Source: Prorocentrum cordatum (lineage: Eukaryota). Taken from it: 64,000 nucleotides of DNA. Location of the stretch: positions 1 through 64,000 of the forward strand of contig CAUYUJ010000038.1 of assembly GCA_963575745.1 (NCBI GenBank). Reading direction: 5' to 3'. Below, in pieces: positions 11,522-61,899 of the stretch. The translations under genes and the position numbers were made by a program. Below the pieces are notes generated by a model. It was not told where the DNA came from and did no database searches. It saw nothing but the letters and a program-made list of their open reading frames with translations. Every line of letters begins with the position of its first letter. Position 1 is the first letter of the stretch.

Positions 11522-12977
11522 GAGTGGAGGCACCGGCGGCTCTCGCGCCGCTCGAAGGCGGTCCGCAGGCGCCTCCGGGGGTAGGGGTCCAGCCTGGCCC
11601 GCTTCTCGAGTCGGGGCCAGCCGTGGCGACGAGACGCCTCCAGGATGCAGGAGGGGAACAGCACACAGACACAATGAATCCTCGATTTCCCAGAACATAT
11701 GGGAAAATATGGGAAGCGGGGGGGAGGACAAAAACCCAGAAAATGTGTCAAACTGTGGGGGATCCTGTTGTTTGTGTACATTTATTTGTGTGTCCCAGGG
11801 CCACTTCAAGGATGTCCGAAAGGATTCAAGCAGTGGCGAGGCGTCCTGGTTGGCCTATCGGCCCACAAAGCAGTGTTCGAAGAACCTGATGTGGTTTGCA
11901 CAACCTGATGTGGTTGCAGAACATTTCTGGCTGTGGCTTCTTATCTAAACTCATCGGCTTTCTGTTCTAGGAGCATGGTTTTTGTTATTAACACATTTTG
12001 GGATGTTAAGAACATGTCGTGGCAGGCCTAGAGGAATGTCGGGACGGTTGGTCCCTGCCAAAAGGATGGAAGATCTACAAGGAGGGATGTCGTTGTCTCG
12101 GCAGGCCCTTCCTCCCAGAGGGACGGTTTTCTGAAGGTCCTGTGGGCCCCGTGAGGGCCCACGAAGTCCGAAAATCGCTCAACAACCTGCCGCTGAGTTT
12201 ATCTTCGGGACGCGAGGAGGTCGGGGTTCCCCTTGTCCGCGCACGTGCCTCGTGCCCTGCTGCGCTGACCCCTCCCTCTGCTTGCATGAGCCCTTGGGAT
12301 CTGTGAAGCTGCAGGTGCCCCTACGAAGTTCTAGCGTCGGCGACTTTCTATTGCTGGGCACCTTGAGGGCGGCTCCCAATGGTATGTTATTATCCCCGTC
12401 TGCTGGTTGACGGTATGTGGATGTTTTTGTCTGTGGGTGTTTCGTTCTGCACCCCTGTCGGGGTTCTGCCACCGGGGCCAGACATCCGACAGTCTCAAGT
12501 CGAGCTATCAATTCATAATTTTGTCAAGGTGGAGCTTGTTCCCCAATCAGTGCTTGCACTGAAGAGGTCCTAGAAGAAATTGAAAGATTTGGCGGAAGTT
12601 TCCCACCGATTTTTGGTGGCTGGCTGGGTTCCCGGGTTCCCGGGTTCCTGCTTTTTGGTTCCGGGCCGAATTCGGTGGGTTCCGGGTTCCCGGGTTCGCA
12701 GTCGATGTGATCAAACCATCCACTCATTGGGGTTGTCCTTGGGTGTAATTTTGTCAAACGGGAGCTCGTTCAACTCAAAGATGTCGGCTGTGCGGCGAAA
12801 TTCTGCAGCGACATACAGATCGATGAAGCATGCAAGAGCAGCGGCAATGGAGAGAGGGAGAGGACAACGGGAGGGATGTGCTAACTGCCGTCGGGAACTT
12901 TTGGATGGCGTGTCGCTCCGCCGGTTCTGGCCCACCACGCTCCAGTGCGACATGCTGTCCATTTCCTGGCCCCCCAG

Positions 12978-13174
12978 TGTGAATAGAACCCGTGTACTAC
13001 CCTCATATATACTCCTTATCCTCACCTCTCCTGCGCCTGGCCGTTTGGGCTCAGGTATTGGGACAGATCGATCAGACCTTTGATCGTGCAGGAGGGAAAG
13101 ACATCCATCTATCTCTCCTTCCCTTTACCAGCGGATCAGGGGTTCTGTACCCTTGCACTTCAACCCCATTCACA
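12978..13174 (+). repeat. 5' LTR
   Basis: 197 bp with TG...CA ends and a 7-bp terminal inverted repeat; 6 substitutions relative to the 3' LTR by eye; TATATA at 13006-13011. Confidence 0.97.
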
Positions 13175-13187
13175 GGTTATCAGCCCT
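13175..13187 (+). promoter_or_regulatory. Primer-binding site of the half-tRNA (anticodon-arm) type
   Basis: GGTTATCAGCCCT abuts the LTR and lacks the TGG of a 3'-CCA PBS. It differs by one base from GGTTATGAGCCCT, the initiator tRNA-Met anticodon stem-loop PBS of Ty5/Drosophila copia type. Confidence 0.8.
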
Positions 13188-13239
13188 TTAAAGCTCACTG
13201 TTCATCGAACCCCGCGTCGCGATCTCGCACGCGGCCTCG

Positions 13240-16200
13240 ATGAAACCCAAGCGGCGCATGCGCCGTAAGGGGTCCATCGGGGCCTCGCGTCCGAGCTCTC
13301 CGACGGCGCGACGGCTCGGTGACGAGTTGGAGAGCCTTAGAGCGGACTGTGTTGGTGTCCCAGGTACCCCCCCCAGTTCCGACGGACCCGAGGCGCGGCT
13401 AGCTGCCGAACTTCACCGCAGCGCCGCCCGCGGGGGGACAGGAGAAGGAGTAGGAACAGGTAGGAAAGAGTTTCGCACGCCTACCTTCGATCCTCCATCT
13501 CCTCCTCAGTCGGGAGCAATCCCAACTGCGTCAGGCGAAAGCCTCACTGGTCCTGATACTCCAGGGCGCTTTCGCGCTAACCGCCGATGGACCTCAGGTG
13601 CTGGTACCCCCAGCCCTGCGACCGTTCCTGTTGCGGAGCACGTAGCCACCTTCGAGGAACTCAGTAGACCAGCGGCGGCACAGCCGCAGACGCAGCACCC
13701 CAAGGTATCATCGGATGAGACACCACACACACACACGGTCCTAGTCGCAGCTCGTCCGCGCGCAACCGTCGTGGGGCCCCAGGCCCATACGGCGAGAGTA
13801 GGTCGAGCCCGCGTACAGCCTCTCAGAGGCCAAGCACTCCTCGCGAGAGGGAGCAGAGGGAAGCGCATGCTCCCCACCTCTCCATCTCAGACGACCAGCT
13901 GGCGGAAACGTCCGCCGCAGGTGAAATAGCTGAGCTCAGAGACCAGGTTGAAACCTTCGTGTCCAGGCATTACTCTGGACTACTGCAGAGCGTTCAGACG
14001 AACGCTGCCAGTACTGCAGCCATACGCCAAGATCTTGACGGAGCCTTAGGGATCATCGATTCCAGGATTGCCGAAGATCGACGCATAATAGGTGAACTGC
14101 AGTACCAGGTTGATCGTGAGGTGTCACACTCAGTTGAACGAACGGCGATGGTCGAGAACCTGCGCAACTACCTTGCGCAGATGGAGCAACAGCTTGTGCT
14201 CGTACGCGACACAGGCGTATCCGCAGTCAGGATCCTCCACGATGAGATCCACGACCAGCTCCGCAACCGACCAACACCAGCCGAGGCCACCGACCTTGGC
14301 GACGTTCAGTCTCAGATCAATAATCTTCGATCCCACATAGACCACACTACGGCGACGCTTCGCAACGAAGCACACACCAACTCGTCGAACCTGATCGACA
14401 TGTTGCAGCGCACTGAGAGAGTCATCACTCAAAAGCTTGATGCGACCAACGCTGTCGTGCAGCCACTCGCTAACCGGATCTCTGAAATCGAGCAGCGTTT
14501 TCCCGGTGTACAGGACGCCTTGGCAGAGTTGCGTGTCGGACGAGCCCAGACTGGCCAGCTGGATTCTCTCTCCTCCCACGGTTTACGATTTCGCCCGCCT
14601 CACTGACAGGTTGCAGGAGGTTGAGAAGGCGGCGGACCACGCGCAGTTGGAGCTCTCCCAGGTTATTCGTGAGAGAGATACTGAGAAAGTACGTGTTGAG
14701 GGGCACCTCGCACGTCTGGGAAGCGAGTTGGAGGCGCAAGGCGCCCGTCTCCGAGCCTACGAGCAACGACTTGATCGGTATTCACAACGTTCTCGGGATA
14801 CTGATGAGTACACACGCCAAAAGGTGGCCCAAATACACGAAGACATGACGAGCTGGACGAATCAGCTGATCGACCACGCCAACGACACCAGTCTTCACCT
14901 TCGACCTGCAACCGACCTACACAGGCCGACGGCAGCGTCCGCCGAAGCACCACAAGCTTCTGCAGGACAACGACGACGTACGTCACCAGGAGCAGCCTCT
15001 GCGGCAGCTTCTGCACAGACACGCCATGTGTCTCCTGTGCGCACAGAACCGACTACTGACGGTGTACCGATACCCTCACAACCATTGTCTGCGGTTTCGG
15101 TCAATACCACTACTCCTATCAAGGAGTCAGACACCGTCCGAGTCCCTGTCTTGCCTAAGATCACGCAGCTGCTCGAGTGGCAGCAAAAGGTACGGAAGAG
15201 CTTTGGCGCCGCCTCAGGGCGACCATCCAAAGCATATGCTTTCCTACGCGTGGCTGAACAGCCCGAGTGTACCTTCGAGGACTTACAAGACAGTTGAGAC
15301 TTTGAGAGCATCGATTGCAAACTCGCTACCGCTCTGAGCGACATCTTATCCTCAGACTCGCGCTACCAAATCAGGCTCATCGAAACCAGAGCACAAAGCA
15401 GGACGCATGCTCAAAGGACGCCAGATCTACTGGCACATTCTACAGTCCTACAAAGTGACAGAAGTTGATGACGACCTGCACGACTTCGAGCGCCTTAAAG
15501 AACTGAGGGTGAGAAATGAAGATTTGCAGCGTTTTATTACTGACTGGGACGCTTTACTATTTGAGTGCCGAGAAGCACCCGACCCAAAGATCTTGGAATC
15601 TCTGTTTCGTACGCAGATTCGGAGACATGCCTGGATGAAACAAGACATGTACGAGTACCAGCGCATGAAGATCAGCGACCCGAATCGTACCTATGATTGG
15701 CTCCGACAGCGCGTCCTGGACGTACTGGAGCTCAAACAATTGGAGAATAATCAGGATAAGTTACGGTGCGAACATGAGACACGTTCTCAAGTCAATGTGT
15801 GCGTTGCCTGGAAGGAAGGCAATTGTCGCAATGGTGAACGATGCAAGGCTTTGCATACCTATTCCAGGGATTGGAAGAACAACATATCTTCCAGAGCATC
15901 GACAGCTGGTGGCAACTCCCGCCGCAGCGTGTCAACTCCTGCGAATCACAAGAAGCCAACATCGAAACCATTTTGCTTCGAGTTCGCCAAGCGCAACACA
16001 TGCAACAGAGGCGGCAAGTGCAACATTCCACACGTTGCACAGTGTAAAGACTTCGCACAGAACAAGTGCCCTAAGGGCGACAAATGCAAATACGCTCATC
16101 TTACACCTGGTGCGAAGACCCCCGAGCGAAGCCCGAGTCGACCACGGGCCTCCAGTCAGTATAGTCGCGGCCGATCACCACCCCGCGGATCAGGAAGCCA

Positions 16201-16636
16201 ACGTTCTTCACAACGCGTGGGGTTCCGCTACGCAAACGACTCACGCCATGGACGTGACAACCGACGCTACTACGACCGACCCCGTTCATCCTCCAGGAGG
16301 TCTCCAGACTCTCGAAGTCAATCGAGAAGTCGTTACGACAGATCTTCGAGATCTACCTCCCGAGGACGAGACAACCGTGGCGGCGGACGTGGCAGCCCAC
16401 GCGGCCGTGATAGATCGTACGGTAGTGACAGAGGGCGTGGCAGACGTTCCCCGAGCCGTGGCTCGCCCCGTGGTTCCCCCCACGCCAGAGCACGTTCTCC
16501 AGCCAACTATCGACGTTCACGCCGTTCCGACCGCAGTTACGTCATTCGTGACAAGACCCTCACGGCCAACACTAAGGTCACTACGACATCTACCAAACCA
16601 CGCCGTCGGATACGCTTCGGCACACGTAATGTGTAA
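13240..16636 (+). pseudogene. gag: Gag-like region: N-terminal low-complexity and coiled coil, helical core, three CCCH zinc fingers, RS/RG-rich tail
   Basis: Stitched from ORFs 13240-13929, 13959-14606, 14437-15297 and 15407-16636. Fingers: CVAWKEGNCRNGERCKALH, CFEFAKRNTCNRGGKCNIPH, CKDFAQNKCPKGDKCKYAH. Lies between the PBS and the protease. Confidence 0.75.
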
Positions 16637-16834
16637 TACTACCTACATACCGTATCTGGCAGGGCCAGGCTGGACGAGTGGAAGGAGATGCCGAACGAGG
16701 GTGACATTGTCATTGTACCAGACCCGATATCACAACGATGGTGGGATCAAAGTGCAGACGCTCTACGAGAATGTCAAAAAGAGGCACAGCTGTGGTACAA
16801 AGATCTATAGGACTACCGACACAACAAGGAGTCG

Positions 16835-17290
16835 GTGGTCACACCAACTGCGATCCGAGAATACGATGACGCTGTCAAGCCGTCATCAAAGACAGCCCAG
16901 ACGAAGACAACGACGATGCAAGTCGACCCACCACGCTCGACCGCTGCATTGACACGATCTTGGGTTCTCGACAGTGGTTCTGCGCATCATATTCAGGGTA
17001 AACACGAACTGACGCAGACCGAATCGGATCGCATATCTCTTCGCGAAGAGCATATTCTGGAAACTGCCAATGGAGATCGTACTGTCAACGAGCACTACGA
17101 CATACGGCTACCCTAGGTTGGCTTACATAGGTCAGCCCTTGCCTTGCCAGACTGTCCATCTTTACTATCAGTTGGGAAATTGATTGAGGTTGATGGCTTT
17201 CGGCAGCTTTGGGATCCCGAGCTGGGCTACTTGCTTCAGGATCCGGGGGGCCAATGGTATAAGATTCCAGTTAACAATAGAGTTCCAGAA
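16835..17290 (+). pseudogene. Aspartic protease (in-frame TAG at 17114)
   Basis: WVLDSGSAHHI at 16961-16993, then ETANG and LLSVGKL; same frame as the end of gag and the integrase. Confidence 0.9.
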
Positions 17291-17719
17291 TTACGACTCG
17301 ACGACCTGACACTGATACCACCACCACGTCTATGCACTTCGTCAGCACCCCGACGTCGTCAGCGCAAGCGTTCATCCGCCCGCTGCAACGACATATGTTG
17401 GTGCTGCAAAACTACAGAGCAGTCAACAACTGCAGATGAGCTGCGGCCCCACATAGGGACCTGCCCCAAGAGACCACATGTCGGCGAGGGAGGAGGAGCA
17501 CGGACCGCCACGGTCGAAGAACCTCCCGACACAAATAACCCCGAGCCTAACGTGGACACACCCACCGACTCGCTTATGTCTCAGACGCAGTGTTCTCCTC
17601 CAACATGCGGGGGGCTAGTAGAGTCAGCTCAAGCAGATACCGACATACCGACAGAGACGATCACACTAGTGCACCACGACAATGATCGCGTTCTTCCAAG
17701 TAGACAGAAGAAACCGATT

Positions 17720-18610
17720 GACCCTATGCATTACATGACCCACAGTCCAAAACACCCAGACTGTGAGATTTGTTCTCGCACGATGGCGCAGAATGCTCAG
17801 TGTCGACGACAGCGCAAGCCACATCCACCGGCAGACCCCACCGACGAGGATGCAGCCTACGAGGCTTTTATCCCGAAGAAATTTGGGGACGCCCTAACTG
17901 CCGACCATATCGTCTTGGCCAAAGACGATGCCGCAGACAAGCACGGCGACAAGTATGCACTTGTTGTCCTGGATAGATACACCGGCATCTTCATGGCTTA
18001 CCCAGCACTGCACAAAGACGCAGCTACCACAAAGGCATCCTTTCAACAGTTCATCGCCGCGAACGATGAGGTGAAGCATATCTACACAGATAATTCTGGA
18101 GAGCTTCAGAAGGCTTGCCGCCAACTGGGACGGAGACATGACACTAGTGCGCCGCATCGTCCGCAAACGAATGGATTGATCGAGCGCATCATCAAGATTG
18201 TCATTCTCGGTGCGAGAGCTGTGTTGCATATGTCTGGTTTGGGACATGAATGGTGGAAAGAGGCCATGCAAGCCTTTTGCTGTGGACATAATTTTGCGCA
18301 TCCATCCACGGGCGTTGCTGCCCTCAGCGAGGGGCACGTCGACAAGACAGCTCATGAAATACGTTTTGGAGAAAGTTTTCACGGGCACTGCATTCCATTT
18401 GGTGCTCGGATCTTTTGGAAATGCCTCAACCCCGAGATTAATAACGAGATTGCAAAGTTCAAAGAAAACACTCGGGAAGGATTATTCATGGGTTACCATT
18501 TACACTCTGGTGGACGATGGTCAGGTGATTATCTTGTCTTGGACACGGCTACATACGCCAAGACCCCCGATGGGGAACTGTGTCACGTACACAGAGTCAA
18601 AGACATCATC
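17720..18610 (+). CDS. Integrase (HHCC zinc domain plus DDE core)
   Basis: HYMTHSPKHPDCEIC; ALTADHIV (D), IYTDNSGE (D), PQTNGLIER (E); C-terminal PFGA and GLFMGY. Confidence 0.92.
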
Positions 18611-19739
18611 GTCCCCGATGGCAAGTTCACCTACCCAGTGAAAGAAGGTGCTCTGCGACACCACAACCCTGAGGCACACAACGAGGTCAAGGCATCTACC
18701 TCTCGCCCCTTGGGCGACAAACCAATGCCCGATCCCCCACTTTCCTACCCTAAAGAATGGGATGACCCGTCTATGATGACAACGGAAGACAACACCGCTG
18801 ATATCCACGCATCGGCCTCTGAAGTCGCTGCACCAGCGCCGGAGCCCGACTACTGGGAACAACGCGGATATTGCGTCATCAGCCCTATACGTATTCCACG
18901 CAAGAAATTGTTCATACCGACGGACGACGTCATGAACATACCTGTACCTGTTGATCAGCTCGACGTGACACGAGATTTCGATTCGACTTCTACCTTTGAA
19001 GGAGAAAGTGTCTTTCGCGATGTTTGGGGCGGTGTCAGCGCCAACGACCACGGGGGGTTGAGCGAGCCATGGACCGGCCTGGTTCGATTCTATGAGCTTC
19101 CAAAAATAACACCAGATGGAAAAATGGTGGTCCGTGGCCGCGAGACACGTGTACAGACTACTACGCGTCCTGATCACATTCTTCCCGAGCATTGGAAAAC
19201 CTTATCTCGTGAACAGCAAAAGAAAGAAATCGAGTGCGCCGAAGATGTTAAACGAGCTCGTGAGATTCCTGACCGAGCTGCACTTCGAGCGTGGACAAGA
19301 CAGGACAAACAGGCCAACAATTTCCGTACCACTACAGCTGGCGGACCCACATGGAATGCTGTGGAACGAAGGATTACGTACGACACTGGCAACGGCGCGG
19401 TCATCCGTGACGAAAACGTCAAGGGCGTGACGAACAAAGAAATTCTGTATGCCAAACTACCTGGTGGGCCACGTGACATTACTACGGTACTGTACTACCG
19501 CCAACCCCCACAACAGCATGCTGGAGACGAACGTGCTTCGGTGCTTGTGGATAGTGAGGGGGCCGACTTTGGGACCATGAGCCCGCTTATACGCCAGTTC
19601 ACCCAGTCGGTAGCAGTGCCCACTATGCCGCGTGAGACGACCTATACACCGGCACACAGAGACAAAATTCCCGATTCCTCATGGGCACGCCCGGCCCTAG
19701 TTACCAGAAGTCTGAGTAAGAAAGAAGTTGCCGCAGAAC

Positions 19740-22071
19740 CACGTGCACAGGAAGCCCTACGAAAAGAATACGAACGACTGGAGAAGAAACAAACGTGGAT
19801 GTTGGAGATTGTTGCAGAAAAAGCTGATATTGAGCCACAAGCTATTCGTACTGGGACGAAAGTTCATTTCTTCAATATCTTGGAGCTATCTTCAGTCAAA
19901 CACGAGGAACTTCCACTTGATCTACGCAATTCAAGGGCCGAGTGGTGGTTCAGGGCCACACAGGCAAAGATGGAACTGGTTTGGCCGCCATATTCGCCGA
20001 CGCCGCTTCCAGTGCTTCGCATATTGAGGCTTCCAAACTTTGCGATGCTACTGCATTATTGCCACAATATGCGGGCGAACAAAGTGATGCACCTGGAGCC
20101 TACACGCAGGCATTACTATACGGCGACGGACGAATCGATCCAGTTGATACTTGGATTACCATACCCAAATGGCGCCAACCGACATCCTGGTCAAAATACA
20201 AGAATCCAGTGTGCCGATTACGATTGGCACTATACGGACACCCTCTCGCAGGTGTCTTTTGGGAACGAAAGTGTCGCATATGCTTGGAAAATGCTGGTTT
20301 CGAGCCTATTCCAGGATGGGAAAGCGTATGGAGACACAACAAACTGGGACTGATACTTTCAGTATACGTGGACGACTTCAAATTAGCCGGACCAGCTAAC
20401 AATCTACAGGCTGGCTGGGACTATATCCGCAAAAGCGGTATTGACTTGGATCCACCTACTCCATACTCACAATATCTTGGCCGTGGACAACAGGCATACG
20501 ATGTACCGCAGAACATATTCGACAAGAGAATGTCTACAATACGACCTATGTTGCCCGTACACAGTGAGAAAGATTACAATACAGCCAAACAAGTTCGTGG
20601 AATTCGACATGACATGCTTGGTTTTACTGATCAGTGCATTGAGCGGTACCTGGAATGCGCTTCCAAGCGCGCCCAGGGACCAGGGTCACGTCGGAAACGG
20701 TCCGACTCGCCGAGGACTTCGCGATCCAAATCGCCTGTCTCCTCCGGGTCGGTCGCCAGACCTACTAGCGTGCTCAACGCGCGGCCGCGATTATCCAGCC
20801 CGGCAAGATCGGTCGATACACCATCTACTACAACAGAACCCATACCAGTCACATACGATGACCTACCTGACGCCGAGACCCCTGGCATCGAGGACACCTC
20901 CTTCACCGATTCCGATTGCTCCGATGAGGGCATCCTTGGCCAGGACGCAGCGAGTGTACTGATGGAGATTCTCTACCTGGCACGTTGCTGTCGTTTCGAT
21001 CTTCTACATCCAGTATGTATGCAAGCCAGAGAAATTACCAAATGGAATACCACGTGTGATAAACGTCTACATCGATTGATATGCTACATCAAAACGACGC
21101 GCACACATTGTTTACACGGATGGATAGGCGATTCGTCAGACAAGTCATCCATCATGCCCTTCACTGTCGATTGCATTCGCCATTGCAATACATCCTCTAA
21201 GTCCACTACCGGCGTCTTCGCCGCGCTTGTTGGACCTAATACGTTCTTCCCGGTCAACGCTGTGTGTAAGAAACAAACGGTTGTATCGCATTCATCTACA
21301 GAATCTGAGATCGTTGCTCTTGACTCAGCACTACGACTGGAAGGACTACCACTACTCTCATTCTGGGAAGCCGTGGTGGGAGTTGCCAACACATGCAAAG
21401 AGAAGAATTCTTGCCTGGGCTGCCAGGGACGCGCCGATACGGCGACGTGTCCGACGTTGGCCGCCAAAAAGAAGAGGCGCAAGCCGTCGCCTCGCAAGGC
21501 ACCCCCCACAAGGGGATCTTCTCCTAGCCGTAGGCAACTACCGCTGAAGACGGAGTTACCTACGCCTCCAAAGAGGCGTACGATATCCCATGAGGGTACC
21601 GCATTGCACGTGGATCCAAAACCTGCTCAGGAGATCAGCTCTCCCAAAGTGCGTCTTATCGTCCTCGAGGACAACCGGGCCGTGATCAAAATTGTCCAAA
21701 ATGGACGTACACCAGCACTTCGTCATCTTCATCGTACTCATCGTATCAACCTGGATTGGATATGTGAGACATGCCAATTTGAACATATTGAGCTCAAGTA
21801 TGTAGGTACAAAAGAGCAGATTGCAGATATGATGACCAAACATTTCGAGCCAAAGAAAGCAGACCTCTGGAAGGACCTCTTGGAACACTCGCTCATATTT
21901 CCCGTTACTCCGGTACAATGTCCTCCAAAGAAACTATGGAAACCACTGAAAGGGCCACGGAGGCCCGACGGTTTACCTCATGTTTCTGAACCTCCAAAAC
22001 TGGATGGATGTCCGGAAGTATGCAAAATCTTACTTACAGAGAATAAAAGATGGGGCGAGGTAGGATCATAA
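19740..22071 (+). pseudogene. pol: Copia reverse transcriptase and RNase H (one-base frameshift near 19929)
   Basis: KGRVVVQG, SDAPGAYTQA, LRLALYGHPLAGVFW and SVYVDDFKLAG; RNase H motifs SSTESEIVA, LEDNRAVI, RHLHRTHRINLDW and QIADMMTK. Confidence 0.95.
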
Positions 22072-22122
22072 TGTGGAATGCAATGCGTTGGATAAGCCAA
22101 TCACGAGGGCATATGTGCATGC

Positions 22123-25100
22123 ATGTACCACATTGGAGCACCCGCTGCAGCTACCGGTTCGCGCACACCTCGTTCGAGAGCACGTTCCCCGCATGGTAGA
22201 CAACCCCGCCACCCTCCCTCACCTCCGCAGAATACAGAGAGGTCTAGGACACTCATTATGCGTTCGTGCCGCAGCAATTTTACGACTCGAGCTACAAAGC
22301 GTACAAGCATCCTGTTCGCCGTGTGCGAGGCGCAAATAAGTGAGATCGGTTCTAATCCCGATACCCCCATCCCCGAGATGGATCAGGCACAGCCGCTCCG
22401 CCTCGTCGGCTGGCCCATCGGCTGCGACGCCGAGTACGACCCGAACGCCAAGGACGACGACCGCGTGGGCTTCACGTACCGCGCTCAAACTGGTCGCCCT
22501 CGTGATCCTGATGATGGATACATATACATACATCAACGGCGTGCTGATCGCAGTGCAAATTTTGAACTCCGCGTACCCGACGAATCCACTATTCGAGAAG
22601 TTGCCCGCTCTGCGTCCGCTGACGTCAAGAGTTGGATCAGCGAAACTGGTGGAACAGTCGGCGCCGACGCCAACTACGAGTACAGCACGATTACGGCTAC
22701 ACCATGGCTGTCTTTCATGAGGGCCATGTGCATGATCTCCAGCCTCTTCACTCGTAACTCGTCTGTACAAGAAAGTGTTCGTGGTTTACATGATCATTTG
22801 AACGCGGTGATCCCAGGGGCACACCGCAAGTGTCCGCCAATGGACCTTACGACGGTGATATTGAAGACGGAGTGGATTATGATTCACAACGATTGGTCCA
22901 AAGTTGGCAGTGCAGTACTGGGACAATATGCCGAGGACAGCGTTCAGGATACAAAATACTATTATGGAAATGGTCTTTGTGCACCTTCTGATGTATACAG
23001 CAATGGGTTGACAACTCCAAGCTATGCTCCTAAACTTGATCGTGGAAAGATCAAGTTACCCACGCGCCGACCTGGCTTAGCCAGGACATCAGATACTGCG
23101 GGACACATCGGCCACGCTGTCGAAGATAACCTTGTCACCGAAATGAGGGCATTTTCCGACATTAGCCAGACAAGCAAATTCCGCCGCAAGCTCAGTACAT
23201 GGCTGACTGCACGCGGAGGCTTTGGAGGTATCGGATCATACTCCAAGACGGCGGCAACACCATCCGATCACCCAGACGGCTGGCAGGCACTACCAGAGCA
23301 CGACGAAACTATGACGAGTACTTATCGTTGGCAACCATACGACGAGGGCTCTGTATTCATCGGCGAGGCCCCCACTGAGATTGACCCTGGTCTTACTCCT
23401 GGTCCTGATATTGACCCACTCGGGCTAGAACAAGCAAAGTGCAGCGCGTTTTGTGGTGGCCGGTTGGTTTCTACTCTTCTTTCAGACAACGGGTGGTACT
23501 CACTCGTACAGGAAGATCTGGGACTTCTCTTGCATCATGCCTTCGGTACATCAGGGCACGCATACAAATGGACAAACTTGTACACCGATTCAACATGGAT
23601 TCTGCAGCCCAAGAAAGGGTCCAAGGCCGCCAAGCACAATAAGTACCCAAGTCACGGCATCGACGAGCTCAACAGTCCACGGAAGCGAGACCATCTCGCC
23701 AAAGTATCAAACGTTGGTCTTGTACCGTTATTTATGCCGTGCCTCTATCGCGCGGAATGCATGGGTGGCGCTACCCTCGAGCACTTGTCGACCATCATCC
23801 GCGACGACATCATGATGTGGGCATTCTCCTTTGGCAATTACAAAGAATGGTTCAAACAGAACGACGCGCCGATTGACCAGGACTGCATTCAATTGCCAGA
23901 GGCTGGTGGAGACACCCGCTGTGATATGGCAGAGCTCCGTGAACAGCGTACGCAGACACAGGAGAGCCGCACCACAGCTATTCTCAACAACCAGTTCGAG
24001 TCCACCCTCGATCCGCGAGGCCAGAGGCCTGATGATATACAGCGACAGTGCCTCTATCAAAAAGTGGCGTGAATTAAACGAGGTCATCTGGGAATATTGG
24101 GCCAATGATTTTCCTGCATACGTAAAACAAAGGCACTATTGCAGAGGCCTCAATGCCACGGCGGCATGGAGCGCAAACGACATCGCATGTGCCAACCACG
24201 GACATAATACCGTGGACATGCGTCGCCACGGGGATCGTGCACCTACTTCTGTGCGCGAGCTCCAAAATATGGAATGTGAGGGCGGCGTCCCGACGCTTAT
24301 GCCAGTACACGTACAAGTGGATGTATCACGCTTTATTGATGTGATGCAGTACTTCCGTTGCCCTACGGTTATGGGGCCAGGCAAAGCAGCACAATGGGGC
24401 GTGCATCCGAACTTCGATTACCACACGGACGATTTGGTCAAGACGATGCAAAATCGTGGTATTACAGTTCTTCCATCAGGCCACTGGGTAGAAGCGTACG
24501 ATAGAATTACGCCTCAGGCTTGGCACGCAAAACAGAACAACCACAACATGGCGATGTTTACGACACAGTTCTGTGACGCAGTATGCTATCGTAATTTCTG
24601 TGCTTTGATCCAGTCACTGCCTTCTCAGCCGTATCCGTTCATACCTCCCATCACGACTCCTGTTACGGACGAGCAGGCCTACAGACAGGCCAAAGAGATC
24701 ATGTAGGCTCTTGACTTTAGAGAGAGGATCACAAACGAATGGAAGAGAGATCCCAGCCTCACGACGCTGATGACACAGACAGCAGGCGAGATGGCTCATT
24801 GTGCTTGGATGGCATCATGTGCCGATGGTACGCTGCCGGCATCACTGCCTGCTACCGCAGGTGACCCAAGCATACCTATTCCTGGAATCCCGGCACAGCC
24901 ACCAGCACTTGATCCTCGCGAGCCGAACAAGGCTATTCCTCAGAACGATCCACTTGGTCCTGCATATGACGAGTTATTCAGTTCCCTCTTACTGCTGATC
25001 AACGACTACCCTGGGGAATGGGCATCCTGGGATTCAGTCGAGAAACAAGAGCTCCTCCACCCCAAGATCATTAAAACAGTTGAAGATGCACATGCTGTTA

Positions 25101-28100
25101 CTTGGGTTGTGTTTGAGCAGTTTCTACAGCAGATTACCGACTTGGACGGAGACGATGAGGCGACCAAATCACGACTCATTGCAGAAGGCAACAGGTTGAA
25201 CGCCCACCGTGTAGGCCCTGCTGCCGAGAACCAACAGACCATCGAAGCATGCAAAACATTCTTCAGACAGAATGCATGGGATCGAGTGGCATTGGGGCAC
25301 GATCCCGATGTTCCGACTGCCGTATGGCGCGCGGCGGTTGAAGCGGACCAGCCAGCACCACCAGGCCCATTGCTTGAGCCACTACAGCCTGGCCCGCAAC
25401 CGATAGCCGTGCCAGAGCCATCAACGCATGGCCCGCTCCCAAACCGCACGCCAGCAGACCAGTCGCCAGCAGGACAGCTCCCGAAAGCCGAGACAGTCCC
25501 GATCCCCGATGACGGCACTGATTTAGATGCGATGGAGCTGGAGGCAACTCCTGCCGACGACGACCCTTCTCCACACACGGTGAATTTATTGTCGTGGCAG
25601 GACAGCTGCGAGAGTTCCATGTACGAGGACATCAGCCAGGTCGGGATGCTCGACAACGCATGCACTATTCGAGAGTACAAGCTTCAAGCAGGCATCGTGG
25701 ATGACCATCCGTACGTTTCTCCTGTATTGCGGGGTATATCTGCGACCAATGGATTTGCTTGCCTACAGAATGAGGAATGGTTCGATCAATTGCAACACGA
25801 CGATTGTGTGATTGCCCACGCTCCCGATATTGCACAATCTGGTTGTTTTCCGGAATGGAAGTGGATATCACTACCACATTACGACGATATACGTTATGGT
25901 CCTGAATTATTTGATGAGTGGCTCGGAGATCCTAAATACATGAGCAAAGACATCACGACGATGTTACGCCACGAGATCCACTACAAGAAGTTCCACATCA
26001 ATCAATTTCACGATCGACGTATCAACATATGGCCGAATACAACGGATCGTGAGTGGAAGATCCCAAGTAATTGGAAATCCTTTCAGGATGTGGTCAAATG
26101 GAAATTCAGTGATCGTAAAAGCCACAACGGACCATCCACCGATGCGGCCATGACGCACTTCAAAAAGGATGGTGAGAAAGATGGTACCCCGATTGGAATG
26201 ATTACTACCCGATATTCATCATTCGTGCGTTCCGGAAACATATTGACCCGCAGAAGAATCGGATTGATATATACGCCAAACCAATCCCCGAAGGAGGCGA
26301 CCCCAGCTGTTTCGATTGGAACAGCGTTATTGCCATTCGATGTGTTGGAGGCCACAGTTGCGTCAATCCACTTTCCAAACCATGGAACATGGGCTGGGAG
26401 AGCCTACAATGGACAGACGTGAAATACCTCCACCATGACACGACATTCCGTGTTTGGCGCAACATTCTCAAGACAGAGATCATTCCCGGCTATATCGATC
26501 CATCTTCTCAGAGAGACAAATATTATAAACCATCACCACGCACGGAGGCATTCTTCAGTTCCAGCACATATATAGACAATGTCCAGAAGAATCCCCACAC
26601 CTCGGTACAGTCATACAAGTTCAATCACTACAAGAACGAGGTCGAGCTGGTGATCAACATGGAGATTGCCACAAAAGCTGGTTGCAGATTTTGGTTGGGC
26701 GCCCAAGGCGCTATTATGACAGAAGACGTGGTTCCCGCAGCGGCAGTCATTGCAATTCGCCGTCTCCAACCACGCCACGCGCACGGCCAGCAGATATGGC
26801 CGGAGGGCCCGGCCTGGGACTATCCGCCATTGGCCGCGAGACAACCATTGAGCAAATGCGAAATGTGTGCCGTTCTTCCTGGGCAGGAGTTCATCGACAT
26901 CCCTCCTGGGATTACACCAGCTGACACGGATCACGACATGGATCAGCAGCCAAGGACACCATCAGCATCAGCATCTTCGGCTCAGCGACCGATTGCCCCT
27001 CAGCTGGGGGCAGCCCCTGCTGGCCGCATATCTGACGCCGACGCCTTGGACGAACAAATGGTCCGCGCTATGATCAACAATTGCGAGCACAATACAGAAG
27101 ATAAAGAATGGTTGATCGCTATGTCATACTGCCGAGAGGCTCTTCGACCCATCACATCAAATATTACACAGAAAGATTGGAATCGTCGGCCTATATTTAA
27201 TGATGTTTGCATGGGGGATTTCATTGTCACTAAGAATTGGGGATCTACCAATTGTTAGAATTATGACAAGCACTACCCCAAGGGCAATCACAACACCAAG
27301 GTCCTCATGAACAAGGGCCACATATACGGCCACATCATTCATTTCGGAGTCTTTGACATGTTCTTTGCGGTACAAATACCTATCCTCAACTACGGTTTAC
27401 GATGGGTAAACATATGGTACAACGACAAAAGCATGCCTCTCAAGGGCGTTGTCTTTGCTTTGCCAGTACGTGCCGACATCGACCCGAGAGATATGAATAT
27501 TGCGCTGGAAGGACCATCCTCATGCCGCGACAAAATACATCAGCATAAAACAGATGGTGATCTACCATATCTCGGAATGCCGAGCATTTATAAGCCACGT
27601 ATCCCACGTGCGCCGACCAGACGGCCCGCTCCTCGGACACCCGATCCCGAATAGCTGGTGGCCACACCTGCCGAGGATACTGCTCCCGCGGACGATGGAC
27701 CCCAACAAAAGGCAGGCCAATCTGCTGACCCTCTGGTTACCGTCATTGTGGATATATCAAACATCCCACTCACTGCCGAAGAGAAAGCAGCAAATGAAAA
27801 CATGAGATCAGATTTATCAGCAGAGATCCAGGCAGATGAGCACGTCGACGCGAGCATCCTCGACAATAGTATCGACCCTCCAGAGGACTCCCTCAACCAC
27901 CCCGACTACGACCCAGAGGAGGACTCAAAGTGGATCAAGCAATCATATGACCACCGCATATACCGCTGGGCATCGGAGTTGTTGGTGGACTCACCTATGA
28001 TAAAGGTGAAACAAGTCATTGAGGTGCACACGGGCGCTGATAAGATTGTGGCGGGTAAAGCACAGTCATACTTTCGATCTGGGATTCTATTTGGATCCAA

Positions 28101-30103
28101 AACATGGAGCGCGGAGACATACTATTTTGATTACAAGCATACCCACAAATGGGCACGTGACTTACCGATTTGCAGTGCAGATAGCTTCTTCAAAAAGTTG
28201 GTACACGATCTGGGCCCAGAGGTCATTGAGGAATCGACTACAGGCGTCTTCCAATGGATCTCTAAAGTGTATCAAATAATACGGCTGGACAGTATTGCTG
28301 AGCTTCGTGATTTCAGAAAAGATGCTATTCATCAGAACCATCCTGCACTCAAGACGTTGCGTGATCTATTTACACATTGCATCCAGACATTCGGTAACCC
28401 AGGCTTCCCCGTATGGAGGGAGCTGGTGGAAACACCTGCCGCGCCGCGTGACCCAGGCGCGGAGCAGAACATTCCCCAGGATCCAGGCAGCGTTGCATCC
28501 GCAGCTCCAGATCAGGAAACCATGGTACGGATCATAGCCCAACAGAAGGGAATCAACCGCGAGGAGGGTGACAACGAGTCCGCCTTGCAGGAAGAGGCTA
28601 GCCGTATCCGTACAGAAAACGCATGCCATGGTGATACTGACGACGCGGACAACGACACGACCGAGCGCGGTGGACTGCCAGGGGAAAGATTGTCCAGGAT
28701 CGAGATCGATGGAATGAGCAGATCGATCGCTTCCCGTCCGACCGCCGAGATCAACCGCGATGCCATCGATCAGATTTGCCGCAGTCTTGCTCGTGGTCGG
28801 GACACTCGCTGGGGTCTCGTGGGCACCTCACGATTGACGGAGCCCCAGAATATATTCAGCATGATACCGCGCGATGTCGGAATTGCGGTCGCATCTTATC
28901 CCTAGGGCTCGTTACAGATGAAGGTACCGTTTGTGACATATGCTGGCAGTACACCGTTGCCGTAGGTGCCACGGGTAAAAGCACCGCTGTCGAGAGCGAC
29001 CTGGCATACCTCCAGAAGCTGACCAACTGGATCAAGACGACGCTCTCCCAGGAGGGCATCACGAGGTACATGAGAGACGGAGCGCAGGTCATCATGATGG
29101 GCAAGCGCTCCGTTCCAGGCAATGAGAAAGACGTGCTGAGGAGAATGGCAAATGCTGCTAGGAAGAGGTATGAGAAGTGGGTCGCCGCTGGCTCCCCTCC
29201 TGCACACATGTGCAGATTGATGGGCGAGCGTGATGACGACAGACCTCTATACCATCCCTTTGCCAACCTCATTCAGCGCTTTCTCAATGATTTGAGTTCC
29301 ACCACCAAATGACATGCGCTCGTGCCAATAAAGACAATAACGCCTATACCATTGAGGACATGCGCGGCGCCTGTGAAATCCTCGAGACCAGCATCAGGAC
29401 TGGCCAAGCTGGTCGGAAGAAGTGGTGGTTGAACGCAGGCAGACTCGACCGAAGCACGCGGCAGGCGCGCGGACTTGTCACGATTGCCCTGCCCAGAGGG
29501 GATGGCACCCGTGAGAGAGTCACGCAGCGCAAGCTTGCCGCGCTTGCTTATGTTGAACCCGCCTTGGGTTCCACTGACCAGAGGGGGGTTGATTCAGGGA
29601 TGAGAAGCGATCCGATCGAACCTGATACATACTCCCAACACTCTGATGATGCCATGGAGCCACGCATGCCGCGGCACCCGCCGCCGCCGCCGCGCCACGC
29701 TCCTGGCGACGCTGCAGGGCCCAGCGCCTCAGGCGCGCAGGACTACATGCCCGCGGGGCCGCGCGGCACTGCAGCGCAGCGGCAGGACAGCGACGACAGC
29801 CGCAGACCTGCTACGCCTCCCCGCGCCAAGAGGGCGCGCACGACGGAGGACTACGCTAGATGGTGGCGCGACGACCTGGAGGACAGCCAGTGGGGCCCCA
29901 GATACTGGAGCTACTACATTAAATGCTGGATATACATCGCGGACAACAACGGCGAGTTCGTATACGTCCGCGACATCCAGTACAATGAGTGGTTCCGCCA
30001 CTGGATCCCGAGGGCGCCTTGGGAGACCTTCACGACGAGCTACGCGTCGCACGACGGCCACAGGATGTGGGACCGCAGGTTCTACGAGAGGGGCAACGCG
30101 TAG
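22123..30103 (+). pseudogene. Extra ~2,600-codon ORF inside the LTR element, interrupted by single stops and about four frameshifts; contains Tpt1/KptA-like, possible SGNH-like and CxxC zinc-ribbon segments
   Basis: ORFs 23831-24706 and 24770-26422 share a frame and are split by one TAG. ORFs 26389-27258, 27307-27654 and 27658-28905 share a frame and are split by single TAGs. The remaining ORFs overlap at frameshifts. Intronless and sense to pol. Confidence 0.8.
25940..26760 (+). pseudogene. Tpt1/KptA RNA 2'-phosphotransferase-like domain
   Basis: Family motifs in order: SKDITTMLRH (cf. SKxLSxxLRH), DPQKNRIDI (cf. DKxRF), IRCVGGHS at 26335-26358 (cf. IRANQGHS), YLHHDT at 26425-26442 (cf. LYHGT), NILKTEIIPG (cf. 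SIxxxGLxP), RTEAFFS (cf. RxHVHLS), and VINMEIATKAGCRFWLGAQGAIMTEDVVP (cf. IDxxxMxxxGxxFYxSxNGVWLTxxVP). Confidence 0.8.
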
Positions 30104-30800
30104 TAGAGTCGACCGCCAGGCCCACCGCTCGAAAGGCTTGAACTTCATCATTATACAAGTTCGCCTCGAGCGGTGGCTATTATATTCTTTTAGGCCACTT
30201 CACTATCCAAGACAAGTGGCCACACACACACAGATCCTTGCGATACCCAAAGCAGTCCCCTAAGGAGCAACGCCAACGGGAGTCGCCAAATACAGAATTT
30301 ATATATATGCAACTTTTTCGTGTTTATCAACACGACTTTGCGTCTGGCCAGACATTTGCTTTGATATTTAAACGTGTTTCTAAACGCGATAATGTTCATC
30401 AACACGACCTCCGAATATTTTTTTCTCGTTTATTCGTTAGACTTTACTTACATTGCGTTGAGAATGATATGATACCCAGCTCTCGACAGAGAGCTGGTGG
30501 CACCACCTGCCCCGCTTAGGCGCGGCAGCTTCTGATGTTGCTTTAACTGGCTCAGATCCTCTTTCTCCGCCCACCCGTGTCTCATTCTTCTCCGCCCTCG
30601 AGTGCCGAAGCGTTTTTGGGGGGCGCACCGAGGGGGCGCCAAAGCGTGCTTGGCGAAGAAATCGGGACCCTGGGTGTTCCTTCTTACCTTACCTTGCAGC
30701 TGAGGCTATACTGATTTTGCGTTCAGCTGCCTGACATAATTGAGGATTAGAGGAGTAAAAGGGTGACGGGATCTTTTCCTCTATTCCCGAGTCCTACCAT

Positions 30801-30824
30801 GCGGGCGGGATTCGGGACGGGGTG
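30801..30824 (+). promoter_or_regulatory. G-rich polypurine-tract-like plus-strand primer region
   Basis: GCGGGCGGGATTCGGGACGGGGTG directly precedes the 3' LTR. Confidence 0.6.
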
Positions 30825-31021
30825 TGTGAATAGAACCCGTGTAATACCTTCATATATACTCCTTATCCTCACCTCTCCTGCGCCTGGCCGTTTGGGCTCA
30901 GGTATTGGGACAGATCGATCAGACCTTTGATCGTGCAGGAGGGAAAGACATCCATCTATCCCTCCTTCCCTCTACCAACGGATCAGGGGTTCTGTACCCT
31001 TGTACTTCAACCCCATTCACA
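30825..31021 (+). repeat. 3' LTR
   Basis: 197 bp, about 97% identical to 12978-13174, followed by the TSD CCCAG. Confidence 0.97.
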
Positions 31022-31698
31022 CCCAGCGCCATTGCCCAGAGCTTTTGCGAGCCCCCGCCCCGCGGTGCGGAGCGACACGCTATCCGCTAGAAGAGCGTGG
31101 CGTATCGCCGGGGCCGCCGCCAGTACACGCTGAGCAAAAGTTCCCGACCGTAAGGTTTTTGGACCTCAAGCATCTCTTTTGGCGCGCCTGAATGGAAATT
31201 TTACGAGATCGCATTTCGTGCTCAATCGAATCATTGATCAGGGTCGCTTCTGGCCAGTCTGTTTCAAAATGAACGATCGAACATCTACTCAGAAAATTCG
31301 GCGTTCAACGGAGAGAGGGCGATGACAACGGGAGGAGTGCGCTAATTCGCCCCTCCTTCTTTCTGGCGCTTTCCCCGCGACCCACCAGCGACCCGGCCCG
31401 CGATCCACTCGCGGCCCCGCCTGCGTACATTGGCCGCTGCCCACCTGCGTGCCCGCCTCCCGCCTCTGACCTGGCTTGCGACCCAGTCGCGACCCAGCTG
31501 GCAACCCACTTGCGACCCAATCTTGATCCACCTGCGATCCAGCACGCGACCCACTCGGCGCTCCTCCCCCGCCCTCCTCCCCCACTCCGCCTTCTACTCG
31601 TCCTCCTCCTCTTCCCCCTCCGCTTCCTCCTCCTCCTTCTCCCTTTCTCCGCCTCTTCGTCCTCCTCCTCCCCTTCATCCTCCTTCTCCTCCTTCTCC

Positions 31699-52359: not shown

Positions 52360-54280
<1,921 letters not shown>

Positions 54281-54289
54281 ATCGAATCC

Positions 54290-56135
54290 GATCTGGGATG
54301 TGGCCACCTCTGGTAAAAACTTTGTAGGGACGGAGCCACTTCTCATAACCATTACGGATGGAGCCACTTCTGAAAGAAGCCTACTAGTAAAGGAGACACC
54401 TCTGGTAGAATCGCATGGGCGATGGATCCGCCTCGAATCAGTAGTAATGAATGGAAAAAGCTACTTCTAATAGATTCCTAGTGTTGATGATTCCACCTCT
54501 ACTAAGATCCAAATCGGGATGTAGCTACCGCTGGTAGAACTCCATGAGGGATGCATCCACCTGTGATGGACTCCTCAAGGGCATGGAGCCGCCTGTGAGA
54601 GGACCCTATCAGGGATGGAGACACCTCTGATACAATCCGATGAAGGATACATCCAGCTCTGATGTGTCCTATCAGGGATGCATCCACCTAGAATAAAATC
54701 CGAGTAGGCATGGAGCCACCTCTGGTAGGATCCAATTGAACAAAGATCCACCTCTAAGAGAACCCGATTCGGGTTCCGGTTCCGGTTCCGGTTCGGGCGG
54801 CCGGCGGGGGGGGAAGGTAGTTCCGGTTCCAGTTATGGTTCCGGTTCGGGTGGCCAGCGAGATAGGGGGGGGGGCTAATTCCGGTTCCGGTTCCGGTTCG
54901 AGCCACCTGCGATAAAAGCCTATGACGGATGGAGCCACAGCAAATATAATCCCATTAAGGATGGAGCCACCTCTGATATAAACTTATTAGGGATGGAGCC
55001 ACCTGTGAAAATTAAGGATGGAGCCTCATTTGATATAAGCCAATGAGCGATGAAGCCACCTCTAAAATCCGAAGAGGAATGTGGCCACCTCTTACAGAGT
55101 CCTAGGAGCCACCTCTGATACAATCCCAGTACGGATGGACCCCCCTCTAGTAACCTCTAATTAAATCCTGGTAGGAATGGAGCCGCCTATCCTCTTAGCC
55201 ATGGAGCCACCTCTAACAGAATCCAAGCGAGTCCGTTAAGGATGAAGACACCCATGATCAACGCCAGTTAGGGCGCCGAAGTGAAACCTGGCGAGCCCGC
55301 GCCGCAGCGAGCGCGAAGCCCGGGGCAGCAAAACAAAAAAAAGAAAAAGCGGCTGCGCCGCTTCTTCATTTTTTAAGTGGTTTCATGGCGTGGGGTAAGG
55401 AGCAATTGTTGTTCGAAGATGTAGCCGCGATCCGCAAAACGAACTTTGCAGGAAGCCACGGCCGTCGAACAAAACTTCATGGATGACCAAACTTTCAGGT
55501 TAAGGGTGGACCACCTCTACGAGGGGTGGAGCAGCGTCTGACGGAATCCTATGAGGGATCGAACCACCTCTGATAGAATCGCACTCGGGATGGAGCCACT
55601 TCTGAAAAACTCATTTGGGAGGTGGAGCCACATTTTTATAGAACCCTTTAGGATCAACATCGCCTTTAAGATAGTCCTAGTAGGGATGGGGGCACCTCTC
55701 ATGAAATGCCAAAAAATCAGAGCCGGAACCCCCTCTGCTATTAGAGAGTCGAGGCACCTCTGATTGAATGCTCGAACGGCTGGAGCCAACTCTAATAGAG
55801 TCCTAATTGGAATGGGGGCACCCTGTAATATAATCCGTCAGGAATGGAGCCAATTAGAAGGTAATCATACTTGAGATTTAGCCACCCCTCATAAAATTCA
55901 AGTAAAGATGGAGCCGCACACCCGATCGAACCCGAGCAACGATGGCGCCACCTCGACTGCAATCCTAATAGGGAAGCAACCACCTCTAGCATAACCCTCC
56001 TAGGAATGAAGCAACTTCGAAAAATACCCGATTCGTGATGGAGCCACCTCTATTGGAATCCTGGCAGAGATGGGGCCACCTGTTATTAAAGCCCATGACG
56101 GATGGAGCCACAGCAAATATAAACGCATTAAGGAT
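54290..56135. repeat. ~38-40-bp degenerate satellite with core GATGGAGCCACCTCT; resumes at 61500-61890
   Basis: The core recurs about every 40 bp, with mutually related linkers. Confidence 0.9.
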
Positions 56136-61200: not shown

Positions 61201-61899
61201 AAAATCGTCTATGGGTGCGACAATCTACTCTCAGCAGGTTGCCGGAGCCTGCAGCGTGTCCGGGGCCCGGGGCAGCAGCAAAAAAAAGGAAGAAGCGGCT
61301 GCGCCGCTTCTTCCTTGTTTTTTTTTTTGTGTGCGTTGCCTTCATGGTGGGGGGGGCTGCGCCGCTTCTTCCTGCTTTGTTTGGCGGGGGGTTAAGGGGG
61401 GCGGACGGTTTTTCTGCGCTTCGGCCGCGATCCGCAAAACGAACTTGGCAGGACGCCACGGTCTTGAAAAAAACTGCATCGGCGACCATAATTTCATATC
61501 TGGGGTGGGGCCACGACTCATAAAATCCGATCAAGGGGTGGAGTAACGACTCACGGAAACTTATTAGGGACCGACCCACCTCTGATTGAATCCTAGTAGG
61601 AATGGAGCCACGTCTAATAGACTCCTACTGGGGATGGAGCCACCTTTCACATAATCCTTTAAGAGTGGAAGCACTTTTACTATAGGCCTACCAGGGATGG
61701 AGCCACCTCTCATATAATCCAATTAAGGACGGAGCCCTCCCTGATATAATCCTGATAAGAACGGAGCCACCTCGACTGTAATCCTCATAGGGATGCAGCC
61801 ACCTCTCATATGATCTCAGAAGGGATGAAGCAATCTCGAATTAGTTTCCGATTCGCGATGGATCAACCAACCTCTAGTGCAATCTTGGCAGAGCACATG

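What the first reader, a model, noticed from the sequence alone, without database searches (positions are those of the whole stretch)
22123..30103. About 8 kb of extra coding capacity makes this an 18-kb copia; likely one ~2,600-aa polyprotein
Seen: eight consecutive sense ORFs tile the region almost without gaps, joined by single in-frame stops or frameshift overlaps. Established: typical copia elements are about 5-10 kb, and ORFs after pol are usually env-like. Here no clear transmembrane segment is visible; instead there are enzymatic-looking modules and large unknown regions (22.4-23.5, 27.3-28.4, 29.0-30.1 kb) that may hide further domains.
Basis: partly seen in the sequence, partly recalled or inferred. 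Interest (0 to 1): 0.72.

Follow-up and report, generated by a model that had tools for sequence, protein, structure and literature searches.

The report
Giant copia with fused enzyme cargo
This is a decayed copy of an 18-kb jumping gene of a dinoflagellate whose family reads its usual copying genes and a further 2,650 amino acids as one unbroken frame of about 5,600 residues, and the extra part holds an RNA-end-repair enzyme domain (Tpt1) and a probable esterase that likely travel in the particle with the copying enzymes.

Summary
Confirmed and extended. The window holds an 18,044-bp copia element (12978-31021; 197-bp LTRs, 5-bp target duplication) in a dinoflagellate genome. The eight ORFs are real. 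Their seven internal breaks are private decay: each is shared by at most 1 of 37-38 other copies. The extra region is no nested insertion and no separate gene. It is fused in frame to RNase H: 37 of 54 copies read through the junction, the stop there recurs without tree signal at a mutation hot spot, and natural copies have unbroken frames of 5,671 and 5,541 codons. So the family encodes one Gag-Pol-cargo protein of about 5,600 aa. The cargo is under purifying selection (dN/dS mostly 0.07-0.35) and keeps its order in relatives at about 35% identity. It holds a complete Tpt1/KptA domain with the Arg-His-Arg-Arg tetrad, a probable SGNH hydrolase (four motif residues kept; modest structural match), and about 1,500 unassigned residues. 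No membrane segment was found. A second, unrelated copia family in this genome also carries Tpt1, inside gag. Likely role: co-packaged, NAD+-dependent editing of nucleic-acid ends. No activity or expression was shown.

The parts
12973..12977 (+). 5-bp target-site duplication, left copy (CCCAG)
   Evidence: 5-bp duplications in 22 of 31 copies with both LTRs
12978..13174 (+). 5' LTR, 197 bp, TGTGAAT...ATTCACA
13175..13186 (+). Primer-binding site pairing (11 of 12) with the anticodon arm of host tRNA-Met, i.e. half-tRNA type priming (inferred)
   Evidence: same 12-mer in 28 of 31 copies; host tRNA found and named
13240..16960 (+). gag-like region: coiled-coil part, three CCCH fingers, RS-rich tract; broken in this copy
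   Evidence: Pfam zf-CCCH; first ATG
16970..22068 (+). pol: protease DSG motif 16970, integrase (HHCC 17741, rve), RT (YVDD 20365), RNase H (21664-21840), 75-codon tail
22069..22071 (+). pol-cargo junction; a stop in this copy and in 17 of 54 others, sense in 37 of 54
22072..23544 (+). Cargo module X1a, about 490 aa, conserved, no fold assigned
   Evidence: dN/dS 0.13-0.33 for its first 420 aa; pLDDT mostly under 50
23545..24634 (+). Probable SGNH hydrolase-like domain with inserts (Ser 23590, Gly 23767, Asn 24176, His 24524)
24635..25927 (+). Long helix, helical bundle and Pro/Ala/acidic linker; unassigned
25928..26775 (+). Tpt1/KptA RNA 2'-phosphotransferase domain, both lobes, with inserts (Arg 25967, His 25970, Arg 26338, Arg 26539); split by a private frameshift in this copy
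   Evidence: Pfam PF01885; alignment; tetrad counts; place
26776..30100 (+). C-terminal cargo, about 1,080 aa: two conserved modules (about 27.0-27.5 kb; 27886-28398), a CxxC..CxxC finger (28875-28943), a helical module and a Trp-rich end, with linkers; unassigned
30101..30106 (+). Shared double stop ending the frame
   Evidence: stop in 36 of 37 and 33 of 37 copies
30801..30824 (+). G-rich purine tract before the 3' LTR
30825..31021 (+). 3' LTR, 97% identical to the 5' LTR
31022..31026 (+). Target-site duplication, right copy (CCCAG)

Best explanation
The family encodes Gag, protease, integrase, RT, RNase H and a 2,650-aa cargo in one unbroken frame of about 5,600 codons, and the cargo is likely cut off by the element's own protease and packaged with RT, where its Tpt1 domain would use NAD+ to modify phosphate ends of the element's RNA or cDNA. 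Shown: single frame, integral to the element, purifying selection, Tpt1 homology with the full tetrad. Inferred from known families: translation from the genomic RNA, proteolytic release, co-packaging in proportion to Pol. Odds: single frame 0.93; Tpt1 active 0.8; SGNH fold 0.75; role on the element's own nucleic-acid ends 0.45.
For: Breaks private: frameshifts absent in 38/38, 37/38, 37/37, 37/38 copies; internal stops shared by 0/38, 1/37, 0/37. Junction sense in 37/54 copies and 7/7 older-subfamily copies aligned there. Junction stop has no tree signal (11-13 steps vs 12.0-12.3 shuffled) and is the top site of a hot spot in one trinucleotide (0.82 origins per site vs 0.08-0.27) whose type also makes stops inside pol (8/18, 6/18). 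Natural unbroken frames of 5,671, 5,541, 5,045, 4,721 and 3,577 codons; checked. dN/dS 0.07-0.39 in all ten cargo bins for diverged, unsaturated pairs. 13 of 20 very old relatives keep RT/RH, X1, Tpt1 and C-part. Tetrad 58/58, 56/58, 55/56, 53/55 and 12/12, 10/12, 11/13, 11/14 in very old relatives. Tpt1 also in an unrelated copia family. End-capping and end-dephosphorylation by some Tpt1 enzymes: PMC6182162, PMC6573784 (abstracts).
Confidence: 0.6

Rival explanations
1. The cargo is fused as described but acts on the host, not the particle: Tpt1 would alter host RNA ends or NADP/NAD balance, or blunt an RNA-based defence.
For: Cargo dN is 2-4 times that of RT, as for proteins facing host partners. 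Tpt1 can act on NADP (PMC10622864 passages). Host has stand-alone Tpt1-like loci, so the element need not supply housekeeping activity.
Against: Fusion to Pol ties the amount and place of the cargo to the particle; no sign of positive selection (all unsaturated bins of diverged pairs below 0.4).
Confidence: 0.2
2. Tpt1 heals the primer: the element primes from a cut half of tRNA-Met, and Tpt1 would strip a terminal 2' or 3' phosphate to give a 3'-OH for RT.
For: PBS pairs 11 of 12 with the host tRNA-Met anticodon arm. Some Tpt1 enzymes remove terminal 2'/3' phosphates (PMC6573784 abstract).
Against: The second Tpt1-bearing family has an ordinary primer site for the tRNA 3' end (tRNA match recalled). 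Ty5 primes from an RNase P cut (PMC5371799 passage), which leaves a 3'-OH (recalled), and copia/Ty5 have no Tpt1 (recalled).
Confidence: 0.12
3. The cargo is a separate ORF3, made by leaky stop or from a subgenomic mRNA, as env-like and GDSL ORF3s are.
For: Stop at the junction in 17 of 54 copies including this one, 75 codons after the RNase H motif. ORF3s are typically separate spliced units (PMC5408684 passage).
Against: The stop is homoplastic and of a hot-spot type; young copies with identical LTRs read through; no leader-like word near the junction (13 of 21 at best).
Confidence: 0.06
4. The region is a nested insertion or captured neutral DNA.
For: None found.
Against: Collinear between the same LTRs in all 39 stretches first fetched and in relatives at about 35% identity; no own termini; purifying selection.
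Confidence: 0.01

Closest known systems
Ty1/copia LTR retrotransposons (Pseudoviridae), half-tRNA-primed kind such as Drosophila copia and yeast Ty5
   Same: LTRs TG..CA, 5-bp duplication, PR-IN-RT-RH order, RVT_2, single frame, primer site in the tRNA-Met anticodon arm.
   Different: 18 kb with short LTRs; CCCH instead of CCHC fingers; 2,650 aa fused after RNase H.
Burro/GYPSM1 giant gypsy elements of planarians (PMC6431247, passages read)
   Same: Very large multi-domain polyprotein (4,873 and 5,140 aa) with accessory enzyme and regulatory domains.
   Different: Gypsy order, extras lie before pol and include env; here copia order, about 5,590 aa from the first Met, cargo after RNase H, no membrane segment.
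Bdelloid Vesta LTR elements with GDSL/SGNH ORF3; LINE ORF1 esterases (PMC5408684 passages; PMC3905857 listing only)
   Same: SGNH hydrolase as accessory of a retroelement, downstream of pol in Vesta.
   Different: There a separate ORF with clear homology; here fused, far diverged, with two inserts, and only probable.
Cellular Tpt1/KptA/TRPT1 (PF01885; PMC10622864 passages)
   Same: Two lobes, Arg-His-Arg-Arg tetrad, GHS and HGT motifs.
   Different: Embedded in a retrotransposon polyprotein, about 100 aa of inserts, 25% identity to a stand-alone Tpt1 of this genome.
DNMT-bearing Symbiodinium retrotransposons (PMC5890265 passages)
   Same: Dinoflagellate retroelements with a nucleic-acid-modifying enzyme in the Pol frame, proposed to mark their own cDNA.
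   Different: LINE and DIRS classes and a methyltransferase; that paper says the copia elements lack DNMT.

Membership tests
Ty1/copia | LTRs with TG..CA ends and 5-bp target duplication | tested here: met
   22 of 31 copies with exact 5-bp duplication
Ty1/copia | Order PR-IN-RT-RH with RVT_2-type RT | tested here: met
   rve and RVT_2 score just under Pfam cut-offs
Ty1/copia | tRNA primer site and purine tract | tested here: met
Ty1/copia | RT tree placement among named copia clades | not tested
   no reference RT set fetched
Tpt1/KptA | Homology over both lobes | tested here: met
   PF01885 on the C-lobe, best 27.1 bits; N-lobe motifs align by hand-checked alignment; atlas top three clusters PF01885 at 0.79-0.81, a lead only
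Tpt1/KptA | Arg-His-Arg-Arg tetrad | tested here: met
   58/58, 56/58, 55/56, 53/55; assignment of residues rests
Tpt1/KptA | NAD+-dependent 2'-phosphate transfer | not testable with these tools
   needs assay
SGNH hydrolase | Ser, Gly, Asn, His in four ordered blocks | tested here: met
   54/58, 57/57, 54/58, 54/57; 16/19, 15/17, 9/12, 13/15 in very old relatives; block assignment is by eye
SGNH hydrolase | SGNH fold | tested here: inconclusive
SGNH hydrolase | Sequence-profile match | tested here: not met
env-like ORF3 | Separate ORF with membrane segment | tested here: not met
   fused frame; highest hydropathy 1.36; no SignalP/TMHMM available

The most novel reading that the evidence does not exclude
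Dinoflagellate copia elements have added an NAD+-dependent step to the retrotransposon cycle: a packaged Tpt1, gained at two different places in two unrelated families, caps or heals the ends of the element's RNA, primer or cDNA, and it rides in what may be the longest single retrotransposon polyprotein described, with further new folds among 1,500 unassigned residues.
Probability: 0.35. Interest if true: 0.85.

Novelty: new variant of a known kind. Interest (0 to 1): 0.64.

Why it matters
Copia elements are taken to be compact, and Tpt1 is a housekeeping enzyme whose role outside fungal tRNA splicing is an open question. A Tpt1 kept with its active site in hundreds of retrotransposon copies, in two unrelated families, gives a natural setting in which that second role can be tested. 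The 5,600-codon frame also exceeds the giant planarian polyproteins cited in PMC6431247. My paper searches listed no report of Tpt1/KptA in a retrotransposon; the library lacks most subscription journals and Repbase, and earlier AI notes of this scan describe similar elements in the same genome.

Tried and rejected
Nested insertion, separate genes and programmed frameshifts: rejected. CpG decay as cause of the junction stop: rejected. Alternative genetic code: rejected; only 102 of 2,688 codon sites ever show a stop, mostly once. Protein searches: none among long proteins; 124, 25 and 94 hits, with no Pfam domain or informative name where such columns were shown; most named ones carry a Pyramimonas label but one is 100% identical to this genome, so they are not independent taxa; ENA/JGI fragments at 30-45% are of unknown host. 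NCBIfam weak only. C-terminal model unusable (pLDDT 32); its fold searches gave nothing clear. N-terminal model: Foldseek PDB and viral uninformative, wide search filled by one long helix. Atlas blank for the SGNH-like part. GNRA hairpin excess, noted for other families, is absent here (0-2 vs shuffles up to 2) but present in the second family (15 vs 1.1). A DNMT-like or ART-like reading of X1a was considered from earlier notes and not tested. Supplements of papers were not opened.

Full report
Observation. Eight sense ORFs tile 22096-30103 with three in-frame stops and four frameshifts. They lie inside an element of 18,044 bp with 197-bp LTRs (97% identical), a CCCAG duplication, a primer site and a purine tract. 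Upstream are CCCH fingers, a protease motif, integrase, RVT_2 and RNase H in copia order. The host is a dinoflagellate: the 4.1-Gb genome holds 15,271 exact copies of the spliced-leader motif (recalled motif; control 0).

The cargo belongs to the element. A DNA search gave 42 matches from 40 of 937 candidates scored; a protein search filled its 150 rows at 86% identity or more from 1,429 candidates. All 39 stretches first fetched match the cargo collinearly (two are duplicates, and one was dropped from later counts). Of 40 copies fetched at both ends, 31 showed both LTRs, 22 of these an exact 5-bp duplication and 28 the same primer site. No inner termini were seen.

The breaks are decay. The four frameshifts are absent from 38/38, 37/38, 37/37 and 37/38 copies; the three internal stops are shared by 0/38, 1/37 and 0/37; the end stop by 36/37.

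The cargo is fused to pol. The stop at 22069 is in 14 of 36 close copies and 17 of 54 overall; 7 of 7 older-subfamily copies aligned there read through. It has no tree signal (11-13 parsimony steps, shuffles 12.0-12.3), whereas other common variants need 0.12-0.29 steps per minor allele on the whole-cargo tree. It is the top site of a G-to-T hot spot in the AGA trinucleotide on both strands (0.82 origins per site, other contexts 0.08-0.27). Stops of the same type hit pol itself in 8/18 and 6/18 copies. Natural copies carry unbroken frames of 5,671 and 5,541 codons, 5,045 and 4,721 and 3,577; the fetched halves confirm frames running from the LTR or gag through RNase H into the cargo. The first Met after the LTR is codon 81 of the longest frame, so the protein is about 5,590 aa. 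Two copies have identical LTRs, so the family moved recently; this window's copy is older and dead.

Selection and age. dN/dS is 0.07-0.39 in all ten cargo bins for diverged, unsaturated pairs, against 0.03-0.09 for RT (the near-identical pair and saturated cells left out). Subfamilies at 64-88% DNA identity keep the cargo. Of 20 very old loci picked, 17 have RT/RH upstream, 14 Tpt1, 14 C-terminal cargo and 13 all parts. In 2 of 16 the RNase H end and cargo share a stop-free frame; the others are broken nearby and say nothing.

Tpt1. PF01885 hits the C-lobe (E 0.0026 in the window; 27.1 bits, over the cut-off, in 1 of 5 hitting frames among 10 scanned). Aligned with two clearer Tpt1 proteins from this genome, the SK, LRH, KxR, RxxGHS, HGT and final Arg motifs fall in register, with about 100 residues of inserts. 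The tetrad named in PMC10622864 (passages) is kept in 58/58, 56/58, 55/56 and 53/55 copies and 12/12, 10/12, 11/13, 11/14 very old pieces. A profile search of PDB gave Tpt1 in 10 of 11 rows, but that profile included the two outside rows; one sequence alone gave none. A Pfam search of the genome showed a second family, 16 kb with 255-bp LTRs, with Tpt1 (86 bits) and a RING finger in a 2,941-aa first ORF and RVT_2 in the second. Its Tpt1 is 22% identical to this one and 32% to a stand-alone copy; its cargo shows no other similarity. Two gains are likely, but no tree was built.

Rest of the cargo. About 1,500 residues in conserved modules between Pro/Ala/acidic linkers stay unassigned; the C-terminal model failed. 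No membrane segment.

Mechanism. Copia polyproteins are cut by their own protease and assemble particles (established knowledge). A cargo fused to RNase H would be made and packaged with Pol. Some Tpt1 enzymes cap 5'-phosphate RNA or DNA with ADP-ribose (PMC6182162, abstract) or remove terminal phosphates (PMC6573784, abstract). The likeliest use is on the element's own nucleic-acid ends, in the manner proposed for DNMTs in Symbiodinium elements (PMC5890265, passages). Primer healing is attractive because the primer site pairs with the tRNA-Met anticodon arm, but the second family has an ordinary primer site. None of this is shown.

Novelty. Giant LTR polyproteins, SGNH accessory ORFs and enzyme capture by dinoflagellate retroelements are known. 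Tpt1 in a retrotransposon and a copia frame of this length were not in the listings (listings only). Earlier AI notes in this genome report the same or similar elements; they are not independent support, and one placed the host among green algae, which and contradict. Verdict: new variant of a known kind, interest 0.64.

Noticed in passing
family copies, window 21900-30100: Strong G-to-T hot spot in the AGA trinucleotide on both strands (0.82 origins per site vs 0.08-0.27). It resembles the polymerase-epsilon proofreading-defect signature (recalled); a sequencing bias is not excluded.
   Followed up: partly
L138-L136, L141-L143, L145-L147, L149-L151: Second copia family, 16 kb, with Tpt1 and RING in a 2,941-aa first ORF, an ordinary tRNA 3'-end primer site and sense-strand GNRA hairpins.
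   Followed up: partly
window 13035-13055 and 3' LTR: Worn spliced-leader-like word inside the LTR (15 of 21; 6 of 500 shuffles reach the score).
   Followed up: partly
window 15669-16952: 425-427-codon open frame overlapping gag in the +1 frame, open in young subfamilies, broken in old ones; may be a by-product of the RS-rich tract.
   Followed up: partly
whole element: Synonymous divergence between subfamilies rises from gag (0.2) to the cargo (0.6-1.2) for the same pair of copies, suggesting recombination or constraint on the 5' RNA.
   Followed up: no
P0049 and other EukProt hits: Proteins labelled Pyramimonas sp. are up to 100% identical to this dinoflagellate genome; the label is probably wrong or the data mixed.
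   Followed up: partly
L183 (G000:C20001): Tandem tRNA cluster with at least ten tRNA-Met-like copies among Ser, Ala, Thr, Leu genes.
   Followed up: no
window 54257-56156, 57000-61000, 61529-64000: Satellite arrays of 32 bp, about 813 bp and 116 bp.
   Followed up: no
L124-L130: Seven stand-alone Tpt1-like loci in short frames; host genes or retrocopies, not examined.
   Followed up: no
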